Shown here piece after piece: positions 24,828 to 46,065 of a DNA stretch of 64,000 bases; the stretch's first letter is position 1, and every line of letters starts with the position of its first letter. The stretch comes from Acidimicrobiaceae bacterium. Lineage in GTDB: Bacteria; Actinomycetota; Acidimicrobiia; Acidimicrobiales; RAAP-2. Below the pieces are notes generated by a model. The model was given only the letters and a program-made list of their open reading frames with translations. It did not search any database and was not told the origin of the DNA. A program made the translations under genes and the position numbers. Location: assembly GCA_003141095.1 (NCBI GenBank), contig PLKM01000010.1, positions 36,693-100,692 on the forward strand. The letters are read 5' to 3'.

Positions 24828-25289
24828 TCACGGTCGACGCACCGCAAAGAACTCGCGCAGCAACGCTTGGGACTCTTCTCGCAAGACGTCGTACGCGAGG
24901 TCCGCTTCGTGGAGCAATCGCGGATCAGAAAGGACGTTGTACCGCGAACCAACTGCGCCGGCCTTCTCGTCCATCGCACCAATGACCACGCGAGCGACGC
25001 GGGCGTTCAAGAGCGCCCCCGCGCACATCACGCACGGCTCCAACGTCACGTACGCGGTCACGTCATCCATGCGCCAGCCATCACGACGAGTCGCCGCGTC
25101 ACGCAACGCAATGATTTCGGCGTGCGCGGTGGGGTCCTGATCGACCTCTCGTCGATTCTCGCCGACGCCAATCACTTCTCCGTCAACAACGAGGACGCAG
25201 CCCACGGGGACGTCGTCGTGCAGCGACGCCGCACGCGCCGCGGCGAGGGCCCCCGTCATGAATTCAGTGTCGCGCGAATCGATCGCCAT
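24828..25289 (-). CDS. tadA: tRNA adenosine(34) deaminase
   Basis: DVPVGCV, DPTAHAEI, TLEPCVMC, FFAVRR. Confidence 0.93.
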   Translation of the reverse strand: MAIDSRDTEFMTGALAAARAASLHDDVPVGCVLVVDGEVIGVGENRREVDQDPTAHAEIIALRDAATRRDGWRMDDVTAYVTLEPCVMCAGALLNARVARVVIGAMDEKAGAVGSRYNVLSDPRLLHEADLAYDVLREESQALLREFFAVRRP

Positions 25290-35339: not shown

Positions 35340-36536
35340 TTAGTTCTTCATCAAGTCAGGCGACGTTTCCATACCCTTACGCCACACGGATCGGGCAATA
35401 ATCTTTGTCACGTCGGCCCGGTCACGGTAACGAACGGCAATGTCGCGCGACTCTTCGAGCAGGCCTTCCGAGAGTTTGGTCGGATTGAGACCAAGCGCCA
35501 GGAAGTGGTTACGACTCACATTGAGTTCGTTCTCCTTGGCCTCGCGACGCGGATTGGGCAACATGGCAATCTCAGCACCCGTCAACTTCGAAATCAGTTC
35601 AGCGAGCTCGAGCACACGGTGAGTCTCGGTGACCTGATTGAACACCATGGGCTTGTCCCCCCGCTCGGGTGGGTTCTCGAGGGCAATCTGAATGCAGCGC
35701 ACGGTGTCGCGGATGTGGATGAACGCCCGGGTTTGACCACCGGTGCCGTGCACCGTCAGCGGGTGGCCAATCGCGGCCTGCATCAAGAAGCGGTTAAGGA
35801 CGGTGCCGTAGTCGCCGTCATAATCGAATCGGTTGATAAGGCGCTCGTCCAGGGCCGTCTGGGGGGTTTGCGTGCCCCACACGATGCCCTGGTGCAGGTC
35901 AGTAATACGCAACTGATCGTTCGCGCAGTAGAAGGCGAACAACAGCTGGTCAAGGGTCTTCGTAAGGTGGTACACCGAACCGGGGTTGGCGGGGTGCAAG
36001 ATCTCGCGGTCGATGTCACCGTCAGGAGTTGGGACCTTGACCGTGAGATAACCCTCGGGAATTGGAGCAGTGCCCGACCAACCGTAGCCGTAGACGCCCA
36101 TCGTGCCGAGGTGAACGAGCGCGATGTCGAGACCAGTCGAAACAATTGCCGTAAGCACGTTGTGCGTGCCTCGAACGTTGTTGTCAACGGTGTAGCGCTT
36201 GGCGATGCTGCTGCGCATTGAGTACGGTGCGGCTCGCTGCTCTCCGAAGTGCACAATCGCGTCGGGTCGCTCAGTCACGAGCAGGGACTCAAACCGGTCG
36301 TACTCTTCGGCGAGGTCTAGGTGGACGTAACCGATTTCCCTTCCGGTCAACTCTTTCCACACCCGAATCCGCTCGCCAATAGGGCGGATCGGCGTCAATG
36401 AATCGACCTCGAGCTCAAGGTCGATCTCGCGGCGGCTCAAGTTGTCGACAATCGTCACGTCGTGACCGATGTCTGACAGGTGAAGCGACGTGGGCCAGCC
36501 ACAGAATCCGTCACCGCCAAGAACAAGAACCTTCAT
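35340..36536 (-). CDS. sqdB: UDP-sulfoquinovose synthase
   Basis: MKVLVLGGDGFCGWPT, EQRAAPYSM, HLGTMGVYG, YHLTK, TDLHQGIVWG, YGTVLNRF. Confidence 0.93.
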   Translation of the reverse strand: MKVLVLGGDGFCGWPTSLHLSDIGHDVTIVDNLSRREIDLELEVDSLTPIRPIGERIRVWKELTGREIGYVHLDLAEEYDRFESLLVTERPDAIVHFGEQRAAPYSMRSSIAKRYTVDNNVRGTHNVLTAIVSTGLDIALVHLGTMGVYGYGWSGTAPIPEGYLTVKVPTPDGDIDREILHPANPGSVYHLTKTLDQLLFAFYCANDQLRITDLHQGIVWGTQTPQTALDERLINRFDYDGDYGTVLNRFLMQAAIGHPLTVHGTGGQTRAFIHIRDTVRCIQIALENPPERGDKPMVFNQVTETHRVLELAELISKLTGAEIAMLPNPRREAKENELNVSRNHFLALGLNPTKLSEGLLEESRDIAVRYRDRADVTKIIARSVWRKGMETSPDLMKN

Positions 36537-36894
36537 CTGAACTCCAATCGATGCCGTCTCGACGGCTTTGACAAACGGCGAAGCCAAAGATTTGGCTTCG
36601 CGACCATGCAATCTTACCAGCCCCCTGACGAAACCCCATTTCCGAGGCTGGTAGTTCACTGTGAAATATTGTGAACTCCTTTAACTCGATCGGGTGAGCA
36701 CCATTCGTCGACGGGCCGAAGCGGCCGCGCGGCATCGTTCGCTGTTCACGCTTCTGCCTGGTTCACGAACGTCTCATAATCACAGAGATGAACTTTTCGT
36801 GACGGGCCAAGGCCTGATCGTAGAGTCTTTCCGGTGTAGGGTGAGAAAAATTGCATTCCTAGAGAATGTCCAGACTGTCATCAAGGGGCTGCCC

Positions 36895-37413: not shown

Positions 37414-38493
37414 TCACGTCATCGGTGCTCCGACGGCGTAATCGGAGTTCACGGCGTCCATCACGGCGTCCACCGCCTTCGGCGTGTCGGTGACCACACC
37501 GAGCTCGCGGTTGTACGAGAGCGAGGATGTGGAGAAATTCTCGCTGCCGATGAATACGGTTCCGCCACTCACCTCGCAGTCGACGCAGATGGCCTTGGCG
37601 TGGATGTAGAGCTGCGAGGAGTTGAGAACGTGCACGTGTACTCCTGCGCCCTCCAGTTGGACGAGCGCCGCCTTCCATGACGAGTCGTACGTCATGACGA
37701 CCTTGACCGAGACGCCTCGTCTCGCCGCGGCGACGAGTGCCTGTTCTATCGATGGCGAATCCATCTCTTCGTTTTCGACCAGCAGGGTCCGACGGGCCGA
37801 TGCAATCAAGTCAACGAGCGTCGACGTCGATCCCGGGCTCCACACCAATCCGCCCGAACTGCGAGGTGGTGTTCCCTCTCGCGCGAAATCATCGCTGAAA
37901 GTCGACTCGATCGCACGGACGTCGCTGGGAAGCCTGTCCTCAACCCAGAAATCTCTCGTCGACGAATAATCCGAAGAATCGAGATTCCCGGTGCCGATGA
38001 AGGCCGAGCTCTTGTCGATGACGAGATACTTGGCGTGAAAAATCTGACTGGACGGCGCCCATTCGACGTGCACCGAACTGGCGCGCAGCAGGGCGACTGC
38101 CGGCGCGTTGTCGCTGGTGCCGTAGTACGCGGCGTCCAGCAGAACCCGGACAGTCACCCCCGAGTGCGCCTTGGCGATGAGCTCATGCTCCATGGAGCTA
38201 TCAGAGAGTTCGTACATTGACATATCGATACTGTGGCGTGCATGTTGAATGGCGTTCGCTAAGAACCCGTAGCCCATCTGGGGTTCAGTCCAGACATTCG
38301 AGACCACCGATCGGTGCGAGCTGGTTGCGGCTGCATCGCCACCGAGTGGAGCAATCGACACTAGAGCCAGCGCGAGGACACCCACCGCAACACCGAGAGA
38401 CGAAACGACACCGAACCTCTTGAATTCCTTGGTCCTCTCGCCCTTAATCGGCGAGAGCGCTGCAACCTTCATGGGGCGAATCCTAGGACTCAC
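37414..38493 (-). CDS. Secreted phospholipase D-superfamily protein (two HKD motifs)
   Basis: Signal/TM segment; HAKYLVID, HAKAICVD, IGSENFS. Start 38493 or 38472. Confidence 0.88.
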   Translation of the reverse strand: MSPRIRPMKVAALSPIKGERTKEFKRFGVVSSLGVAVGVLALALVSIAPLGGDAAATSSHRSVVSNVWTEPQMGYGFLANAIQHARHSIDMSMYELSDSSMEHELIAKAHSGVTVRVLLDAAYYGTSDNAPAVALLRASSVHVEWAPSSQIFHAKYLVIDKSSAFIGTGNLDSSDYSSTRDFWVEDRLPSDVRAIESTFSDDFAREGTPPRSSGGLVWSPGSTSTLVDLIASARRTLLVENEEMDSPSIEQALVAAARRGVSVKVVMTYDSSWKAALVQLEGAGVHVHVLNSSQLYIHAKAICVDCEVSGGTVFIGSENFSTSSLSYNRELGVVTDTPKAVDAVMDAVNSDYAVGAPMT

Positions 38494-38695
38494 GTGTCAC
38501 AGGCTGAGTTGACGCGAGCGAGTGGCTGACCTGGTCGGCCTCTTCCCACTCCGGGCGCCTTCATCTCGACGATCATGGGTTCGCGGTCGGGCGATGAGAC
38601 CCCATGACGCCAACTGACCAGGCCCGAGCACTGTCCTATCGTGAGGAGATGATCGACAATCCGAAGACCCGTCCTCCCGCGGGTGTTCGCCACCA

Positions 38696-39859
38696 ATGAG
38701 ATATCCGCGAAGGATCACTCGTGGCCGCGGCTTCCGCACAGCGATCGCCACCGCTGCCGTTGTCGCGATGGTCGGTGTCGCATCGAGGGACGCCCCGGCT
38801 GCCTCCGGTACGACCAGTGAGGGCGGGCTCCACATATATTCAATCAACGGTCGCCATTACGGCGTGCTCACAGCGATCCACGTCCTCGCCTTCAGCGGAA
38901 CTCAGTACTCGGTCAATATTGACCTCGCCAAACACGCCATCGACGGGGGTGAGCAGACCCCGAGCTCTATGTGCCAGACCACGGCTGGCTGCGTGGCGGC
39001 TGTCAACGGTGACTTCTTTGATCTGACGCACCCGGGTGTACCCGACCCGGGCGACGAGGTGGGCGGAATCATTCAAGACTGCGTCCTCCTTCATACCCCA
39101 GAGATCGCGCATCAGCAGGCCGATCTCCAAGAGCAGTCAGTCAGCGCGGGCCTCAACTGGAGTAGCACCGTCGACGTCAACGGCACCAGCGTACCGATCA
39201 CCGCCATTAACCAGGAACTGCCGATGTCGTACGTCAAGGTCAATCTCCCGTTGACCGGAACCCTGCTCTTCACTCCACCGTACGCCCTTCTAATCCCGTC
39301 CGCGACGGGGCGGGTCACGTATGAGTTCGCTCAAGTTGATGGCTCCACCAGTCCAACCACCATCAACACGACGGCTGAACTCCAACTCGTGGCGCAGACG
39401 GCAACAGCGGTGAAGGTCACCGCCGGTGAGGTCGACATCTCCGCGCCCACGGGGACGGCGCTCGCATCCTTGGAGGTCGGCAACACGGTAACGATGACAA
39501 CAACCTCAACCGCCGGGTGCGACAACATCGGAGCGCACCCGATCCTCCTCAATCACGGCGTGGTTGAGCCAATAGATCGTGCGGATACCTACATGATCAG
39601 GCCGTATGCGCGCACGGTCATTGGATGGACGGCATCGGGTGAGACGGTCGTCATGACTGTCAATGGCACGGACGGCGTGTCGGGCGCCACGGCGTACCAA
39701 CTAAGCAGGCTGCTGCAGTTCCTCCACGTGGTGACCGCCGTCGACCTTGATGGAGGTAATTCCACGACTCTCTATGCCAAGGGGCGCGTTCTGAATATCC
39801 CCTCACGTGGGACCGAGCGGCCGGTTTCGACAGGTCTGCTCGTCGTCCGGAGCCCGTAG
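38696..39859 (+). CDS. Secreted phosphodiester glycosidase family (NAGPA-like) protein
   Basis: Signal peptide; AVNGDFF, PYARTVIG, VDLDGGNST. Confidence 0.8.
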   Translation: MRYPRRITRGRGFRTAIATAAVVAMVGVASRDAPAASGTTSEGGLHIYSINGRHYGVLTAIHVLAFSGTQYSVNIDLAKHAIDGGEQTPSSMCQTTAGCVAAVNGDFFDLTHPGVPDPGDEVGGIIQDCVLLHTPEIAHQQADLQEQSVSAGLNWSSTVDVNGTSVPITAINQELPMSYVKVNLPLTGTLLFTPPYALLIPSATGRVTYEFAQVDGSTSPTTINTTAELQLVAQTATAVKVTAGEVDISAPTGTALASLEVGNTVTMTTTSTAGCDNIGAHPILLNHGVVEPIDRADTYMIRPYARTVIGWTASGETVVMTVNGTDGVSGATAYQLSRLLQFLHVVTAVDLDGGNSTTLYAKGRVLNIPSRGTERPVSTGLLVVRSP

Positions 39860-40226
39860 AGGCCGCCGGGCGACCCCCTCGACGATCCACGTCGTGCCCT
39901 CGACAACGGCCGTGGCTGTCGTCGCCCCCGCGATGGTCCGTCAGCTGAGCTCCACCGTGATGGTCCTACCCACGATGACACGCTGATGCGACCGCATCGC
40001 CACGGATCACTTATTGAGTCGGTCACGGATTCAGGGGTTGTTCTCTGAGGGAGAAACCAGAGGATGTCGGTGCAATCCTTTGCCGATGCCCTTCTGTCAT
40101 CGAAAGCAAATCGGCTAAGGCCTACCCTCAGAAGGGACTGATCTAGACAGCCGCGGAGATTCATTCGGATGAGCGTCAGCCCAAGCGACAGCGAGTTAGG
40201 ACCTGAGTACCTGGCCCGAAGATGAA

Positions 40227-40303
40227 TGGTGCGGCTGGAGGGATTCGAACCCCCGACCCTCGGTTCCGAAGACCGATGCTCTAATCCGCTGAGCTACAGC
40301 CGC
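40227..40303 (-). tRNA. tRNA-Arg(TCG): identical to the tRNA-Arg(ACG) at 45989-46065 except at position 34
   Basis: 77 nt with encoded CCA; anticodon arm TCGGT-CTTCGGA-ACCGA; all stems pair. Confidence 0.88.
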
Positions 40304-40594
40304 AGTTGCAAAACTTGTTTAGTCCTTGACGCCAGTTCGTTCACGCCAAAGCCTGCAAGGAAATGGTAGTACCAATGCGGCGACGCTGGGATTACGTGGG
40401 CTAGCCCTCACCCCTATCCTTTGGTGCAACGAAAGCTGGGGCCGCAACGACCCGAGCCACGAGCGCCCAGGGTTCGTGAGGCATCAACCGACTTCGTCTC
40501 CGAATCTGGACAATGCTTCGTTCCGGCAGTCCAAACCCCGCGAACGGCCGACGCGCCGGTAGTCTCTTGCTATCTCGACGGAGGAGGATTCTCG

Positions 40595-41074
40595 ATGGCA
40601 GAGTTGATTGGCGCGAGCACGTGGGAAGAGGAACTGTACGCGCACCTCACGTCACACGAAGTCACCGAGGGTGAAATACTGATCGAATACCGCGACGTCG
40701 CCGCGACGTCGCCGTCGAGCGCCTTTCGCTATCTAAGCGCCCTCATCCTTGAAGACGAGATCCGCCACCATCGGGTGTTCAGGGATCTGGCGTCAGCTCT
40801 GAAGAACGACGTGGAACTCGATCCCGAGGCACCCGCCGTACCCCACATCGGCAACTGGGGAGACGACGCGGCTACGGTCGTGCGCCTCACTGAGACCCTC
40901 CTCGAACGCGAGCGTGCCGACGCCAAGGAACTTCGCCATCTGGCTTCCGAGCTGAAGAGCCTCAAGCAGGAAACCCTGTGGCAGTTGTTGATCAAGTTGA
41001 TGGAGATGGACACGGCCAAACACATCGAAATTCTGAGGTTCGTGAAACGCAGCGCAACGAAATCGATGACGTAG
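40595..41074 (+). CDS. Ferritin-like/rubrerythrin-fold protein
   Basis: GGAGGAGG RBS; EDEIRHH and MDTAKH ExxH/DxxxH helices. Confidence 0.7.
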   Translation: MAELIGASTWEEELYAHLTSHEVTEGEILIEYRDVAATSPSSAFRYLSALILEDEIRHHRVFRDLASALKNDVELDPEAPAVPHIGNWGDDAATVVRLTETLLERERADAKELRHLASELKSLKQETLWQLLIKLMEMDTAKHIEILRFVKRSATKSMT

Positions 41075-41126
41075 GGTCCTTCGCGCAAGGTTGACGTTCC
41101 TAGTTGCCCTCACTGCATCTGGTGAA

Positions 41127-41203
41127 TGGTGCGGTTGGAGGGATTCGAACCACCGACCCTCGGTCCCGTAGACCGATGCACTAGCCCGCTGAGCTACAGC
41201 CAC
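41127..41203 (-). pseudogene. Degenerate full-length tRNA-Arg(ACG) copy
   Basis: Seven substitutions relative to 45989-46065, producing mismatches in the acceptor, D and T stems. Confidence 0.8.
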
Positions 41204-43110: not shown

Positions 43111-43124
43111 TGCTTCTCTTGGTG
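43111..43124. repeat. Left target-site duplication (14 bp)
   Basis: TGCTTCTCTTGGTG, 13/14 identical to 45980-45993. Confidence 0.85.
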
Positions 43125-43156
43125 GGGATAGGTGACAAGGACAGCCGAAACGTCCG
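43125..43156 (+). repeat. Left terminal inverted repeat
   Basis: GGGATAGGTGACAAGGACAGCCGAAACGTCCG; 27/32 match to the reverse complement of 45948-45979. Confidence 0.85.
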
Positions 43157-43463
43157 GTAGTCACCCCTGTTTTCGAATACCCGCGCTTGTTCAAGTGATG
43201 GCGTTCCTGCATCTCAACACGTGGTGCGCAAGATCCCAGCCTCAACCCCCGAGCAAATCGGCGCCTTCCTTAGTTGTTCACAATCAATACCGTTACGTGC
43301 AACCCGCCATATGCTCCAATACCCGAGTCTGATGCAACCGGCGACACAGGAAATCACCCCGAAATTGTTACCCGCCCTTAATTGCCTTCACGCGGAGTCC
43401 TTAGAGGGCGCGGCAAGTATGGGTCATGCGTGGAGATGTTCTCCGCGCGAAGGAGGGACCACC

Positions 43464-43745
43464 ATGTACCGGACCACCGCCAATCGACTTCGCCGCATCG
43501 CCGTTGCGTCTGCCCTTACGATCGGCGCCAGCGGAGGAGCGCTCGCCGGGACCCTGACCGTCCTCGGCACGGGAACCAACGGCCCCGTGAGCGCCGCAGC
43601 CATTTCTCACACAACATCGAGCTCGTCCAAGGCGTCGCACACTGTGGTTGCGGCGGCGGTGCCGGTAGCGGTGAGCCAAGCGACAGCAACGTCGGCCACT
43701 ACCAGTCCGTCAGGGACCGCGTCGACGAAAACGCTTGACTCGTAG
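43464..43745 (+). CDS. Small secreted Ser/Thr/Ala-rich protein (element cargo)
   Basis: AGGAGGG RBS; RRIAVASALTIGASGGALA signal-like segment; low-complexity remainder. Confidence 0.6.
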   Translation: MYRTTANRLRRIAVASALTIGASGGALAGTLTVLGTGTNGPVSAAAISHTTSSSSKASHTVVAAAVPVAVSQATATSATTSPSGTASTKTLDS

Positions 43746-44063
43746 CACTCGACCTGAACCGTACGTAAGTCCAGGGTCATCAATTGCGTGGTGACCGAGG
43801 TGGACGACAATCTTCGGATTCTACGCGGCTCGTGCATTGGTCGGAAGGGCGAGCGTCGTTTGGGGCCAGCACGATTCGGCGTCTTCGTCTTGGACTGCTT
43901 TGAGTCTGAAATGCAATCGTTCGTCGAGGCCCGAGTCGCTACTTTAATCTGGTTGTGCTCTTCCGCTCATCGACGTCCTTGTAGATTGTCAGGGTGTGGT
44001 CGAGGTCGTTGACCGACGACTCGACCGTGTATGCCATCGTGGCAAAGTTGATTACGTTCGCCT

Positions 44064-44933
44064 TTACGGCACACGAATCGAGAGTGCGCCGGACGCGGTG
44101 ACCGATCGACCCTCGGCATCCACTCCCATAGCCGACACGGTGACACTCGCACTTCCTGCGCTCGCCCCTGTCAAGGTGTAGTCCAGCACCGTTGAAGCAC
44201 CCTTTGCGAGCTTGAATCCCGATGCGCTCGACGCAGGACCAGCAGTCAACGACGCCGACGAGATCGTCACAGCCGATGGAACAATCGAGTAGATCGGACC
44301 TGCAACCGCGGTCAACTTGACTGAGATCGTCGCTGTCGCACCGACGGCCAAGCTCCCCGAGGTGGCGCTTGAGGTGACCGACATCTGCAGTCGTCCGCCC
44401 TTCTTCAAGCGTATGCCCGAGTTGAAAATGAGGTAGATGGTCGGCGAATCGTTGTTCTGGCGGACATAGACGGGCACCCACATCTTCGTCCCCCGAGGGA
44501 CGATGACCCAGCATTTCGACACGTTCGTCTTGCAGCCCGAGACGACCTTCACCCCGCCGCCCACGAACCAGTCCAGGTGGTTGTACACGCAGCCAGCATC
44601 GCCACAGGCGACCGGCTTGGTCGACTGGAGCGGCGCGGGGCCCTTTAGTTTGAACTTGTCCTTCTTGTTCGCGACCGTGAGCGGAACGACGGTGCCGCCA
44701 CCCGGGATGATGTAGCCCTCGCAGTCGCCGTAGCCCGACCCGGTGTAGTAGCAGGTCGGAATCGGCGGGGGCTTCGTGGTGCCCTTAGCTTCGGCCACTC
44801 CGGAGCTCACAAGTCCCGAGACGACCACGACCGCCGCCATGACCAGCGCCGCCAACCCGCGGCGATTCCCTGACGCGCCGAGGCTGCGCTGAGCGGATAT
44901 CGACTGCTTCCCGTTCACAACTGAATACGTCAT
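44064..44933 (-). CDS. Secreted Cys-containing protein with a C-terminal Ig-like/DUF11-like domain (element cargo)
   Basis: Signal peptide ending AEA; six Cys in the N-terminal domain; beta-rich C-terminal part (ATATISVKLT, TVLDYTLT). Confidence 0.6.
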   Translation of the reverse strand: MTYSVVNGKQSISAQRSLGASGNRRGLAALVMAAVVVVSGLVSSGVAEAKGTTKPPPIPTCYYTGSGYGDCEGYIIPGGGTVVPLTVANKKDKFKLKGPAPLQSTKPVACGDAGCVYNHLDWFVGGGVKVVSGCKTNVSKCWVIVPRGTKMWVPVYVRQNNDSPTIYLIFNSGIRLKKGGRLQMSVTSSATSGSLAVGATATISVKLTAVAGPIYSIVPSAVTISSASLTAGPASSASGFKLAKGASTVLDYTLTGASAGSASVTVSAMGVDAEGRSVTASGALSIRVP

Positions 44934-45290
44934 CTGCTTGTTCCCTTCATCGTCACGGCGAGAACTCAGCGGCATCGGGAAACTGATTCGAATCAGACCC
45001 CAATGTCAAAAACAACATGCCCGTGACGGACTCATCGCCGCTAGAGTCGAAAGCCCTTTCAGCAGCATTCGACGCCCAGCAGAGTCGCTGCGAGCCGCCG
45101 TTCGAGGGAACCTTCAGCACCAAGTCACCGGGTGCTGTGCCTCCGATTCATACCAGACCGCTTGTTTACCATCTCCGGATTGCCGTTGGCAGCGGGCCCT
45201 TTCGTGCGAACGCCGATCTCAACCGGAGCGGTCCGGACGACGGATACTTTCGCAGCCGTTGCCTCGGACCTCTCATGTACACGCTTAACT

Positions 45291-45938
45291 TCAACACCAT
45301 CCAGGGTGACGCTTCGAACTTTCCTTGAGCCAATCGATCGCTCGCCGTTCACTGACTCCTGCAGCTTTGGCCACCGCTTTCGTACTTAGTTCTCGAAGAT
45401 TGGGTAGTACGAATCTCTTTAACTCGTCGTCATCGCTGTAGATCGTCAGGCGCTGGTCGAGTTTGTTCACCGATACCTCACCGGACGAGCGCTCCTCCAG
45501 TCGGTTCGCCTCCTTGCCGATGAGCACAATCTTTCCCGCTGTAATTGGTCGACGATGTAACAGTCGGATCGTCTGACGGTCACAGACCATTCCATCGGGG
45601 CCCAATACCTTGGACTCCGGATGGGATTCGTACCTGTTCACGACGTCGAGGAAGGTTTCCACGCGAGCGGCACCTGGGCGACTGACGCTCGTTGATAGTT
45701 CGTAGTGACCAGCACCAGGATTGTGCACGTCGATCTACTTCAAGGTTTCCCACGTGTGAGCATTCGTCTCGTAGGGGGCGACGAAGCGAAACGGCGAACC
45801 GATCTTGATTCCGTCGGGTGGCTTCGCACCGACTGCCGATGGCGCGAAATTGAAGGGCTTCACCCGTTTGTCAGACGGCACGTCACCATTGAGATGACGA
45901 AAAGCGCGTCGGACCGGCCCCTGCCGGCGCAATTGCAA
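45291..45938 (-). pseudogene. C-terminal remnant of a casposon-type family B DNA polymerase, 5'-truncated, with an in-frame TAG at 45735-45737
   Basis: Two same-frame ORFs read VKPFNF, FVAPYE, LK*ID (expected W), YESHPESKVLGPDG..CDRQT..LLHRR and LIGKEANRLEE, then an HTH. This matches my recollection of bacterial casposon PolB tails; not verified by search. Confidence 0.7.
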
Positions 45939-45947
45939 ATGCTTTCG

Positions 45948-45979
45948 CGGACGTTTCAGACGTCCCTATCACCTATCCC
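45948..45979 (-). repeat. Right terminal inverted repeat
   Basis: The minus strand reads GGGATAGGTGATAGGGACGTCTGAAACGTCCG. Confidence 0.85.
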
Positions 45980-45993
45980 TGTTTCTCTTGGTG
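45980..45993. repeat. Right target-site duplication (14 bp), overlapping the tRNA 3' CACCA
   Basis: TGTTTCTCTTGGTG; 45989-45993 are the last five tRNA nucleotides. Confidence 0.85.
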
Positions 45994-46065
45994 CGGCTGG
46001 AGGGATTCGAACCCCCGACCCTCGGTTCCGTAGACCGATGCTCTAATCCGCTGAGCTACAGCCGC
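45989..46065 (-). tRNA. tRNA-Arg(ACG)
   Basis: GCGGCTG acceptor stem, TCGGT-CTACGGA-ACCGA anticodon arm, GGTTCGAATCC, encoded CCA. Confidence 0.97.

What the first reader, a model, noticed from the sequence alone, without database searches (positions are those of the whole stretch)
40227..40303. tRNA-Arg(UCG) arising from a single anticodon substitution in a tRNA-Arg(ACG) duplicate
Seen: 76/77 identity with 45989-46065, the only difference being A34 to T; all stems are intact and a TAAACA hexamer lies just upstream. Known: most bacteria read CGU/CGC/CGA with TadA-edited ICG, which decodes CGA poorly, and tRNA-Arg(UCG) is patchily distributed. tadA is present in this window, and CGA is not rare here (4 of 27 Arg codons in regX3 by hand count). 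Inference: a new TadA-independent isoacceptor for CGA, caught early in its evolution.
Basis: partly seen in the sequence, partly recalled or inferred. Interest (0 to 1): 0.7.

Follow-up and report, generated by a model that had tools for sequence, protein, structure and literature searches.

The report
Old tRNA-Arg(UCG) paralog, not newborn
This is a real arginine tRNA gene that differs from its neighbour only at the wobble base, but about a third of the species in this Acidimicrobiales genus carry the same extra tRNA, so it is old and is an ordinary case of a known way tRNA sets evolve.

Summary
Window 40227-40303 (-) is an intact tRNA-Arg(UCG), 76/77 identical to tRNA-Arg(ACG) at 45989-46065; the only difference is A34T. 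Three independent public assemblies carry the same T, so it is not an assembly error.

The "caught early" reading fails. The same ACG-like UCG gene was found in 48 of 151 congeneric species searched. It lies in the same variable interval, and in at least six other species searched it sits beside the same conserved ORF, whose DNA is only 72-82% identical to G000's. G000's closest relatives on an rpoB tree all have it, with one to three extra differences. The zero-difference allele recurs in four other, scattered species, so G000's perfect identity is probably derived.

Most UCG carriers (40 of 48) also keep a canonical tRNA-Arg(CCG). UCG is therefore an auxiliary third CGN decoder alongside TadA-edited ICG.

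The interval is a hotspot for pSAM2-like integrative elements, whose att repeat starts in the anticodon loop. In one relative such an element visibly replaced the 3' half of the UCG gene.

This scan found ACG/UCG duplicates before on other DNA (e1-5208532, e1-765608).

The parts
40227..40303 (-). tRNA-Arg(UCG), 77 nt with encoded CCA. It is an auxiliary CGN isoacceptor, the positional ortholog of the genus-wide UCG gene.
   Evidence: ARAGORN. Rfam 71.8 bits. 76/77 identity to the ACG gene. Identical in three independent assemblies. Orthologs lie beside the same ORF in G051, G066, G098, G044, G076 and G105.
45989..46065 (-). tRNA-Arg(ACG), the TadA substrate and parental-type paralog. It is invariant across nearly all genus members read and syntenic with the right-hand flank.
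   Evidence: The right flank from 46137 onward is conserved in G020, G003, G010, G024 and G006.
41127..41203 (-). Degenerate full-length tRNA-Arg(ACG) copy (ACG'), a likely pseudogene. It has 7 substitutions, including mismatches in the acceptor, D and T stems. Its 3' half is orthologous to the anticodon-loop-to-3'-end fragment found at this position in G066 and G098.
   Evidence: ARAGORN. Rfam only 40 bits. Alignment. Homology to G066/G098 stops at 41171, the anticodon loop. Identical in three other assemblies.
40595..41074 (+). Conserved 159-aa ORF of unknown function, divergently oriented from the UCG gene. It serves as the synteny marker for the orthologous UCG locus.
   Evidence: ATG with a GGAGGAGGA ribosome-binding site. 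No Pfam or NCBIfam hit. 72-82% DNA identity next to UCG in G051, G066, G098, G076, G044 and G105, and next to a decayed tRNA in G007. The exact protein is indexed in 142 blocks of public assemblies.
40363..40368 (-). -10-like hexamer TACCAT (TANNNT type), about 60 nt upstream of the mature 5' end. It is the only upstream element conserved among orthologous UCG loci and is a candidate promoter, by inference only.
   Evidence: Alignment of the upstream regions of 7 orthologous loci gives TACCAT, TACTAT or TACGAT in register. The sigma-70 consensus scan found nothing.
24840..25268 (-). tadA, the tRNA adenosine(34) deaminase. The ACG tRNA is therefore expected to be read as ICG.
   Evidence: PF14437, E 9.9e-36. 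NF008113 TadA, E 1e-43, 149 bits for the matched stretch.

Best explanation
The gene at 40227-40303 is a functional auxiliary tRNA-Arg(UCG). It belongs to an old paralog lineage that arose from the tRNA-Arg(ACG) gene of this Acidimicrobiales genus by duplication and an A34-to-T change, at or before the base of the genus's main clade. Many species have inherited it since, and many have lost it.

ArgRS should charge it because the Arg identity elements are unchanged (A20, C35, G36, A73; established knowledge, read from the sequence). It should pair with CGA by Watson-Crick geometry and with CGG by wobble. It therefore works beside TadA-made ICG and, in most species, beside a canonical CCG tRNA.

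Its near-identity to the ACG gene reflects strong constraint on a tRNA body serving the same synthetase. It also reflects repeated resetting of the few free positions to the ACG state. That resetting could come from gene conversion, whole-gene exchange or replacement of the 3' half at integrative-element att sites.

Shown: the gene is present, intact, orthologous, old and polyphyletic in its alleles, and one relative shows a 3'-half replacement by an element.

Inferred: expression, charging, decoding, and which process produced G000's zero-difference allele.
For: 1. The gene is intact. Searches, with an Rfam score above that of the ACG gene.
2. The sequence is real. Three independent assemblies carry the identical gene.
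3. It is spread across the genus. The UCG anticodon arm occurs in 48/151 species, and in 29/82 high-quality genomes. 46 alleles were read.
4. G000's copy is an ortholog. G051 aligns contiguously to window 40209-41086 at 82%. G098 has DUF805 gene, UCG, the ORF, a tRNA fragment, then the 41510 region. G066 lacks only the DUF805 end, which lies outside the stretch fetched. G076, G044 and G105 match at 72-74%. The ACG gene and the epimerase gene bound the interval across the genus.
5. The rpoB tree of 81 species puts G000 sister to G066+G098 (support 100), then G044 (99). All are UCG+, with alleles a20+t46, t46 and del20+t46+a58. UCG is present from the basal G104 onward.
6. The alleles are polyphyletic. 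The zero-difference allele also occurs in G060, G062, G095 and G068, which are scattered. Position 46 needs 7 changes for 7 g-bearing taxa. Position 20 needs 11 changes. The paired c28/g44 sites need 4 each.
7. It derives from the genus's own ACG gene. Alleles are 94-99% identical to that ACG, against 79% to the UCG of another genus and about 72% to the canonical CCG. Elsewhere in the order the arm pattern matched 4 of 200 genomes, and only one of those matches is a tRNA-Arg(UCG).
8. It is auxiliary, not a replacement. 40 of 48 UCG+ genomes also hold the canonical CCG gene.
9. Element-mediated remodelling is seen directly. In G020 a tyrosine integrase abuts the UCG gene, and a pSAM2 RepSA gene lies at the far end next to a 3' fragment that starts in the anticodon loop. 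The displaced fragment keeps a58, as in sister species G106 and G073. The rebuilt gene has g58.
10. Demand and promoter. CGA is 19.8% of Arg codons while other NNA codons are rare. CGA share in rpoB is 10.2% in UCG+ species against 4.3% in UCG- species. A conserved -10-like hexamer lies upstream in 7 orthologous loci.
11. Literature. Wald & Margalit 2014 (PMC4041420) report ACG+CCG+UCG sets in 26/319 bacteria, and two gains of UCG from ACG by anticodon mutation.
Against:
- The sigma-70 scan found no promoter or terminator.
- The link between UCG presence and CGA use is weak. Independent pairs gave 3.6 in the same direction and 0 opposite, median p 0.125. With cruder ORF sets the CGA share is 17.3% against 15.5%, so UCG-lacking relatives use CGA almost as much.
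- G000 differs from sister G098's allele at one site only. A single point mutation, rather than conversion, could explain G000's perfect identity.
- Closeness to the ACG gene does not predict homogenisation. G007 and G050 have the two genes about 0.5 kb apart, yet carry the most divergent allele.
- UCG absences in MAGs are partly assembly gaps, so gain and loss counts are inflated.
- G000's assembly lacks the CCG and CCU tRNA genes. I read this as incompleteness (93% complete), but it is not proven.
Confidence: 0.8

Rival explanations
1. One reading: a recent duplication of the ACG gene in G000's own lineage, followed by a fresh A34T mutation. This would be a nascent isoacceptor seen before any other divergence.
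For: The two genes are 76/77 identical. A second, decaying ACG copy at 41127 shows that full-length copies do arise in this interval.
Against: The flanks of the UCG and ACG genes are unrelated. The UCG gene sits at the conserved UCG locus beside the same ORF as in at least six other species searched, with 72-82% flank identity. All close relatives on the rpoB tree already carry UCG. The same zero-difference allele occurs in four distant species. A re-creation at the very same site would need the same A-to-T change again.
Confidence: 0.05
2. Element-driven allele. G000's zero-difference UCG gene was produced or reset by site-specific recombination at an integrative-element att site. The identity block of that site runs from the anticodon loop to the 3' end, so an element supplied an ACG-like 3' half, or even the anticodon itself.
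For: 3' fragments in nine relatives begin exactly at the anticodon loop. They come in both ACG and UCG versions. G020 shows an integrase/RepSA element that replaced the 3' half and changed position 58. Alleles combine 5' states and 3' states freely.
Against: The window holds no integrase and no tRNA fragment next to G000's UCG gene. G000's 5' half also matches the ACG gene, which a 3'-half swap does not explain. The c28:g44 pair is never seen split across alleles. Precise excision would restore the original half.
Confidence: 0.15
3. Non-functional copy. The UCG gene is a silent duplicate or att-site relic, like the neighbouring ACG' copy, and is not used in translation.
For: There is no expression evidence. 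No consensus promoter or terminator was found. The neighbourhood is littered with tRNA relics.
Against: Relics in this region decay fast. ACG' has 7 changes with 3 stem mismatches. The G007 copy has a TGG anticodon and a broken T loop. The fragments carry several changes each. By contrast, 46 UCG alleles across the genus keep every stem. Their only paired change is compensatory (c28:g44), and they vary otherwise only at D-loop 20a, variable-loop 45 and T-loop 57, with one lone exception: position 27 in G003. A -10-like hexamer is conserved upstream.
Confidence: 0.05
4. Assembly or consensus error. The true base at window 40269 is the complement of A34, and the two ACG copies were mis-polished.
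For: This MAG has at least one local error, a frame break in rpoB.
Against: Three independent assemblies from different archives carry the same T. Orthologs in 47 other species have UCG.
Confidence: 0.01

Closest known systems
Gain of an auxiliary tRNA by gene duplication plus anticodon mutation (Wald & Margalit 2014, NAR, PMC4041420), including two reported A34C35G36-Arg to T34C35G36-Arg cases
   Same: A paralog of tRNA-Arg(ACG) differs essentially at the wobble base. The new tRNA is added to the existing set rather than replacing a member. ACG+CCG+UCG sets were seen in 26 of 319 bacteria.
   Different: Here the event is old and genus-wide, not recent, and the flanks no longer show the duplication. 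The paper associates UCG with low GC content, whereas this genome is 62% GC. The alleles show reticulate, repeated return to the ACG state.
tRNA-Arg(UCG) gain in Mollicutes after loss of tadA and tRNA-Arg(CCG) (Yokobori et al. 2013, NAR, PMC3711424)
   Same: A U34 Arg tRNA, possibly derived from a duplicated ACG gene, eases reading of CGA and CGG.
   Different: In Mollicutes the gain follows loss of tadA and CCG, and can end with UCG as the sole CGN decoder. Here tadA is intact, and most carriers keep the ACG and canonical CCG genes.
pSAM2-type actinomycete integrative and conjugative elements that insert in tRNA genes, with an identity segment running from the anticodon loop to the 3' end (the pSAM2/tRNA-Pro detail is from my own knowledge and was not checked in a paper here)
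   Same: Relatives carry 3' tRNA-Arg fragments that start in the anticodon loop. G020 has a tyrosine integrase next to the UCG gene and a RepSA gene at the other end.
   Different: This describes the neighbourhood, not the G000 gene itself. No integrase, RepSA or fragment adjoins the UCG gene in the window.
Earlier findings of this scan: tandem tRNA-Arg ACG/UCG in pelagic Methylophilaceae (e1-5208532), and a low-GC bacterium with rpsT plus tRNA-Arg duplicates (e1-765608)
   Same: An ACG/UCG pair differs at the wobble base. In both cases the follow-up judged it old or older than assumed, and unsurprising.
   Different: They come from different phyla. Those notes were not checked here. They do not report att-site remodelling or an allele series.

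Membership tests
Bacterial tRNA-Arg (Rfam RF00005 tRNA; ArgRS substrate) | Cloverleaf that scores above the tRNA model threshold | tested here: met
   Rfam 71.8 bits against a gathering score of 29. ARAGORN calls a 77-nt tRNA-Arg.
Bacterial tRNA-Arg (Rfam RF00005 tRNA; ArgRS substrate) | Arg identity elements A20, C35, G36 and discriminator A73 (E. coli rules, established knowledge) | tested here: met
   Read from the sequence. The D loop reads GGA, giving A20. The anticodon is U-C-G. An A precedes the CCA. All are identical to the ACG paralog.
Bacterial tRNA-Arg (Rfam RF00005 tRNA; ArgRS substrate) | Transcribed, processed and aminoacylated with arginine | not testable with these tools
Auxiliary tRNA gained by duplication plus anticodon mutation (Wald & Margalit scenario iii) | The paralog in the same genome is more similar than any same-anticodon tRNA of other lineages, and differs at the anticodon | tested here: met
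   98.7% identity to the genome's own ACG gene, against 79% to the UCG tRNA of another genus of the order.
Auxiliary tRNA gained by duplication plus anticodon mutation (Wald & Margalit scenario iii) | Added to the pre-existing decoders rather than replacing them | tested here: met
   40 of 48 UCG+ genomes also have the canonical CCG gene, and the ACG gene was found in every carrier in which it was looked for. In G000 itself the CCG gene is not assembled.
Auxiliary tRNA gained by duplication plus anticodon mutation (Wald & Margalit scenario iii) | Recent event, with shared flanking sequence between the two copies | tested here: not met
   The flanks of the UCG and ACG genes do not align. The gene is orthologous across species whose neighbouring ORF is 72-82% identical.
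tRNA-borne att site of a tyrosine-integrase element (AICE or genomic island) | Integrase gene next to the tRNA, and a direct repeat of the tRNA 3' part at the far end | tested here: not met
   Not met for the G000 UCG gene: no integrase among the neighbouring ORFs and no further fragment in the window. Met in relative G020.
TadA-independent sole CGN decoder (Mollicutes type) | tadA lost or degenerate, and the ACG/CCG genes lost | tested here: not met
   tadA is present, and the ACG gene is present.

The most novel reading that the evidence does not exclude
In this genus the tRNA-Arg ACG/UCG pair is remodelled by its own parasites. Integrative elements have att identity blocks that begin inside the anticodon loop and exist in both ACG and UCG versions. 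They repeatedly overwrite the 3' half of the tRNA genes, and possibly the wobble base. This would spread or reset isoacceptor alleles across species and explain the polyphyletic zero-difference UCG alleles, G000's included.
Probability: 0.15. Interest if true: 0.6.

Novelty: new member of a known kind. Interest (0 to 1): 0.3.

Why it matters
The case is a caution. Near-identity between two tRNA isoacceptor genes is not a clock. A paralog that differs only at the wobble base can be as old as a genus, because the tRNA body is tightly constrained and the few free sites can be reset.

For this uncultured Acidimicrobiales lineage it documents a three-decoder CGN set (ICG, UCG and usually CCG) in a 62% GC genome with unusually high CGA use.

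The side observations are modestly useful for work on tRNA gene-set evolution. One is that integrative elements swap tRNA 3' halves. The other is that a small-genome clade replaced its canonical CCG tRNA with an ACG-like one.

Tried and rejected
I substituted three independent public assemblies.
- "UCG replaces a missing CCG tRNA". G000's assembly lacks CCG and CCU, but the idea is rejected as a general explanation. 40 of 48 UCG carriers keep the canonical CCG gene, and 42 of 151 genomes searched lack it, which points to MAG gaps.
- An exact-match scan of all genome contigs with the 26-nt UCG anticodon arm. This shows only that the arm is widely conserved, and it did not help with origin or taxon.
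- Consensus promoter and terminator scan. Nothing was found.
- Codon-usage association. rpoB suggests more CGA in UCG carriers, but the independent-pairs test is not significant, and cruder ORF sets show almost no difference. I do not claim co-evolution.
- Proximity-driven gene conversion. Rejected as a simple rule, because the most divergent alleles sit about 0.5 kb from the ACG gene.
- Pfam and NCBIfam scans of the neighbouring small ORFs gave no function.
- I did not re-examine the casposon remnant that another note reports at 43111-45993.

Full report
**What is in the window.** ARAGORN finds five tRNA genes in the window. Three are co-oriented tRNA-Arg genes on the minus strand: UCG at 40227-40303, ACG at 41127-41203 and ACG at 45989-46065. 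The first and third are 76/77 identical and differ only at the first anticodon base; their flanks do not align. Rfam scores them at 71.8 and 69.0 bits. The middle copy scores 40 bits. It has seven substitutions, three of which break pairs in the acceptor, D and T stems. tadA is at 24840-25268.

**The genome.** The window lies in a 2.51-Mb, 62% GC, 84-contig MAG that is 93% complete. Close protein relatives are labelled Acidimicrobiales bacterium. ARAGORN on the whole assembly gives ACG x2, UCG x1 and UCU x1 for arginine. It finds no CCG or CCU gene. The "GCG" and "ATC" calls are 89-96-nt false positives.

Instead I looked up the exact product of the neighbouring ORF (40595-41071). It is indexed in 142 blocks of public assemblies. 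The three contigs returned come from ENA, JGI and NCBI. They differ from the window at a few SNPs and an indel, and carry an identical UCG gene and an identical degenerate ACG copy. Together with the orthologs described below, this excludes an assembly error. The MAG is not error-free, however: its rpoB has a frame break.

**Distribution across the genus.**
- A DNA search of 40 relatives gave no second 100% match, but gave 94-97% matches that ARAGORN reads as tRNA-Arg(UCG) in G003, G007, G009, G012, G013 and G020.
- A pattern search for the UCG anticodon arm in 151 species of the genus found it in 48, and in 29 of 82 high-quality genomes.
- Elsewhere in the order the arm pattern matched 4 of 200 genomes, and only one of those hits is a tRNA-Arg(UCG). 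That tRNA has a different body, 79% identical.
- The genus also has a canonical, unrelated tRNA-Arg(CCG) and a CCU tRNA. The canonical CCG arm is present in 109/151 genomes, including 40 of the 48 UCG carriers.
- UCG is therefore an extra decoder, not a CCG substitute. The missing CCG and CCU genes in G000 are best read as assembly gaps.

**Orthology.** The ACG gene is invariant in nearly all species read, and its right flank is syntenic across the genus. An epimerase gene (35340-36659) anchors the left side. Everything in between is variable. G000's UCG gene lies in this interval next to a conserved 159-aa ORF.
- G051 aligns contiguously across tRNA, spacer and ORF at 82%.
- G098 shows DUF805 gene, UCG, the ORF, a tRNA 3' fragment, then the 41510 region. 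G066 shows the same order from UCG onward (the DUF805 end lies outside the stretch fetched).
- G076, G044 and G105 have the ORF at 72-74% identity.
- G007 has, at this position, a decayed Arg-like tRNA with a TGG anticodon and a broken T loop. A second, intact UCG gene sits 0.45 kb from its ACG gene.

**Phylogeny.** I fetched rpoB from 80 genus members, stitched G000's broken copy and built a codon-alignment tree. G000 is sister to G066+G098 (support 100), then G044 (99). All four carry UCG. UCG carriers appear from the basal G104 onward. They are missing from the deep small-genome lineages. The trait needs at least 10-12 changes on the tree, though some of these are MAG gaps.

**Alleles.** I read 46 UCG alleles. 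In my 77-nt numbering, which runs one ahead of standard numbering after the D loop, they differ from the ACG gene only at:
- position 20 (t, a or deleted);
- position 27 (one species, G003);
- the pair 28:44 (t:a or c:g);
- position 46 (g or t);
- position 58 (g or a).

The c:g pair is a compensatory change; apart from the single position-27 change in G003, the other sites are D-loop, variable-loop and T-loop positions. That is the signature of purifying selection on a working tRNA.

G000's sisters carry t46 (G098), a20+t46 (G066) and del20+t46+a58 (G044). t46 is the majority state, found in 37 of the 46 alleles. G000's zero-difference allele is therefore most simply derived. The same zero-difference allele occurs in G060, G062, G095 and G068, which are scattered on the tree. 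On the tree, position 46 needs 7 changes for 7 g-bearing taxa. Position 20 needs 11. The 28 and 44 sites need 4 each.

That much homoplasy in a 77-nt gene points to repeated conversion towards the ACG sequence, allele exchange, or both. For G000 alone, which is one step from G098, a single point mutation cannot be excluded.

**Mobile elements.** Nine relatives carry tRNA-Arg 3' fragments that begin exactly at the anticodon loop. Some have ACG and some have UCG. In G020 the stretch between the intact UCG gene and its UCG-type fragment opens with a tyrosine integrase and ends with a pSAM2-type RepSA gene. This is an actinomycete integrative element sitting in the UCG gene.

The displaced fragment keeps a58, the state of G020's sister species G106 and G073. 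The rebuilt gene has g58. This is a direct example of an element replacing the 3' half of the tRNA and changing its allele. In the window itself no integrase or extra fragment adjoins the UCG gene. For G000 this therefore remains a possible mechanism, not a demonstrated one. I did not re-test it.

**Function.** By established rules ArgRS reads A20, C35 and G36, all of which are unchanged. A U34 tRNA pairs with CGA by Watson-Crick geometry, while I34:A is a weak pair.
- G000 uses CGA for 19.8% of Arg codons, although other A-ending codons are rare: CTA 2%, ACA 6%, GCA 8%.
- In rpoB, CGA is 10.2% of Arg codons in UCG carriers against 4.3% in non-carriers.
- The phylogenetically independent comparison is not significant. 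Broader, cruder ORF sets give 17.3% against 15.5%.
- UCG is thus plausibly helpful for CGA, perhaps in highly expressed genes, but relatives manage similar CGA use without it.
- A TANNNT-type hexamer about 60 nt upstream is the only conserved upstream element in seven orthologous loci. The sigma-70 scan found nothing.

**Comparison with what is known.** Wald & Margalit (PMC4041420) describe auxiliary tRNAs gained by duplication plus anticodon mutation. They include two ACG-to-UCG arginine cases, and they found ACG+CCG+UCG sets in 26 of 319 bacteria. Yokobori et al. (PMC3711424) propose the same origin for the UCG tRNA of Mollicutes, in a setting where tadA is lost. This scan already met ACG/UCG wobble-only pairs in Methylophilaceae and in a low-GC bacterium, and judged both old and unsurprising.

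**Verdict.** The present case is a further member of this known kind. The origin from the ACG gene is supported, but the event is old, not nascent. The parts that go beyond the known picture are the allele reticulation and the att-site remodelling. Both are shown in relatives rather than in the gene under review.

Noticed in passing
window 41127-41203 (-): A third full-length tRNA-Arg(ACG) copy with 7 substitutions and three stem mismatches (Rfam 40 bits). At the same position G066 and G098 have only the anticodon-loop-to-3'-end fragment. It is unclear why G000 holds a full-length copy here.
   Followed up: partly
G021, G022, G055, G100 (loci L084-L087): A small-genome clade (1.4-1.6 Mb) lacks the genus's canonical tRNA-Arg(CCG). 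Instead it carries a CCG tRNA 86% identical to the ACG gene that shares del20, c28:g44 and t46 with UCG alleles. The ACG/UCG-type paralog appears to have taken over CGG decoding there.
   Followed up: partly
L038:7790-7866 (G007): At the ancestral UCG position, next to the conserved ORF, G007 has an Arg-derived tRNA-like gene with anticodon TGG and an 8-nt T loop. This is probably a decayed former UCG gene. A second, intact UCG gene sits 0.45 kb from the ACG gene.
   Followed up: partly
L034:3628-15456 (G020): An approximately 11.8-kb pSAM2-like integrative element sits in tRNA-Arg(UCG). It carries a tyrosine integrase, a BNR-repeat protein, a 1966-aa RHS/RCC1-repeat protein and RepSA.
   Followed up: partly
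G000 contig C29:18436-22100, upstream of the window: rpoB is split into two frames in this assembly, with about 25 residues unaccounted for at the junction. This is most likely a local assembly error in an essential gene.
   Followed up: partly
whole assembly G000: No tRNA-Arg(CCG) or tRNA-Arg(CCU) gene is assembled, although most congeners have both. A 28-nt piece resembling the 3' end of the canonical CCG tRNA lies at C4:7654-7681, 1.8 kb from tRNA-Arg(UCU).
   Followed up: partly
whole assembly G000 (1498 long ORFs): CGA is the second most used Arg codon at 19.8%, above CGG at 15.7%, in a 62% GC genome where other NNA codons are 2-16% of their families. Similar CGA levels appear in congeners that lack UCG.
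   Followed up: partly
window 40595-41074 (+): A conserved 159-aa ORF with a strong ribosome-binding site has no Pfam or NCBIfam match. It contains an EDEIRHH motif that recalls ferritin-like proteins. It is found in 142 blocks of public assemblies.
   Followed up: no
L054, about 1400-1470 (G066): The spacer upstream of G066's UCG gene holds a tandem (GGAACAA)n repeat, which is absent from G000 and G098.
   Followed up: no
window 37414-40164: G000 has about 2.8 kb between the DUF805 gene and the UCG gene, holding a PLD-like gene, a NAGPA phosphodiester glycosidase gene and a 130-aa ORF. In G098 the tRNA directly follows the DUF805 gene. No att repeat marks this insertion.
   Followed up: no
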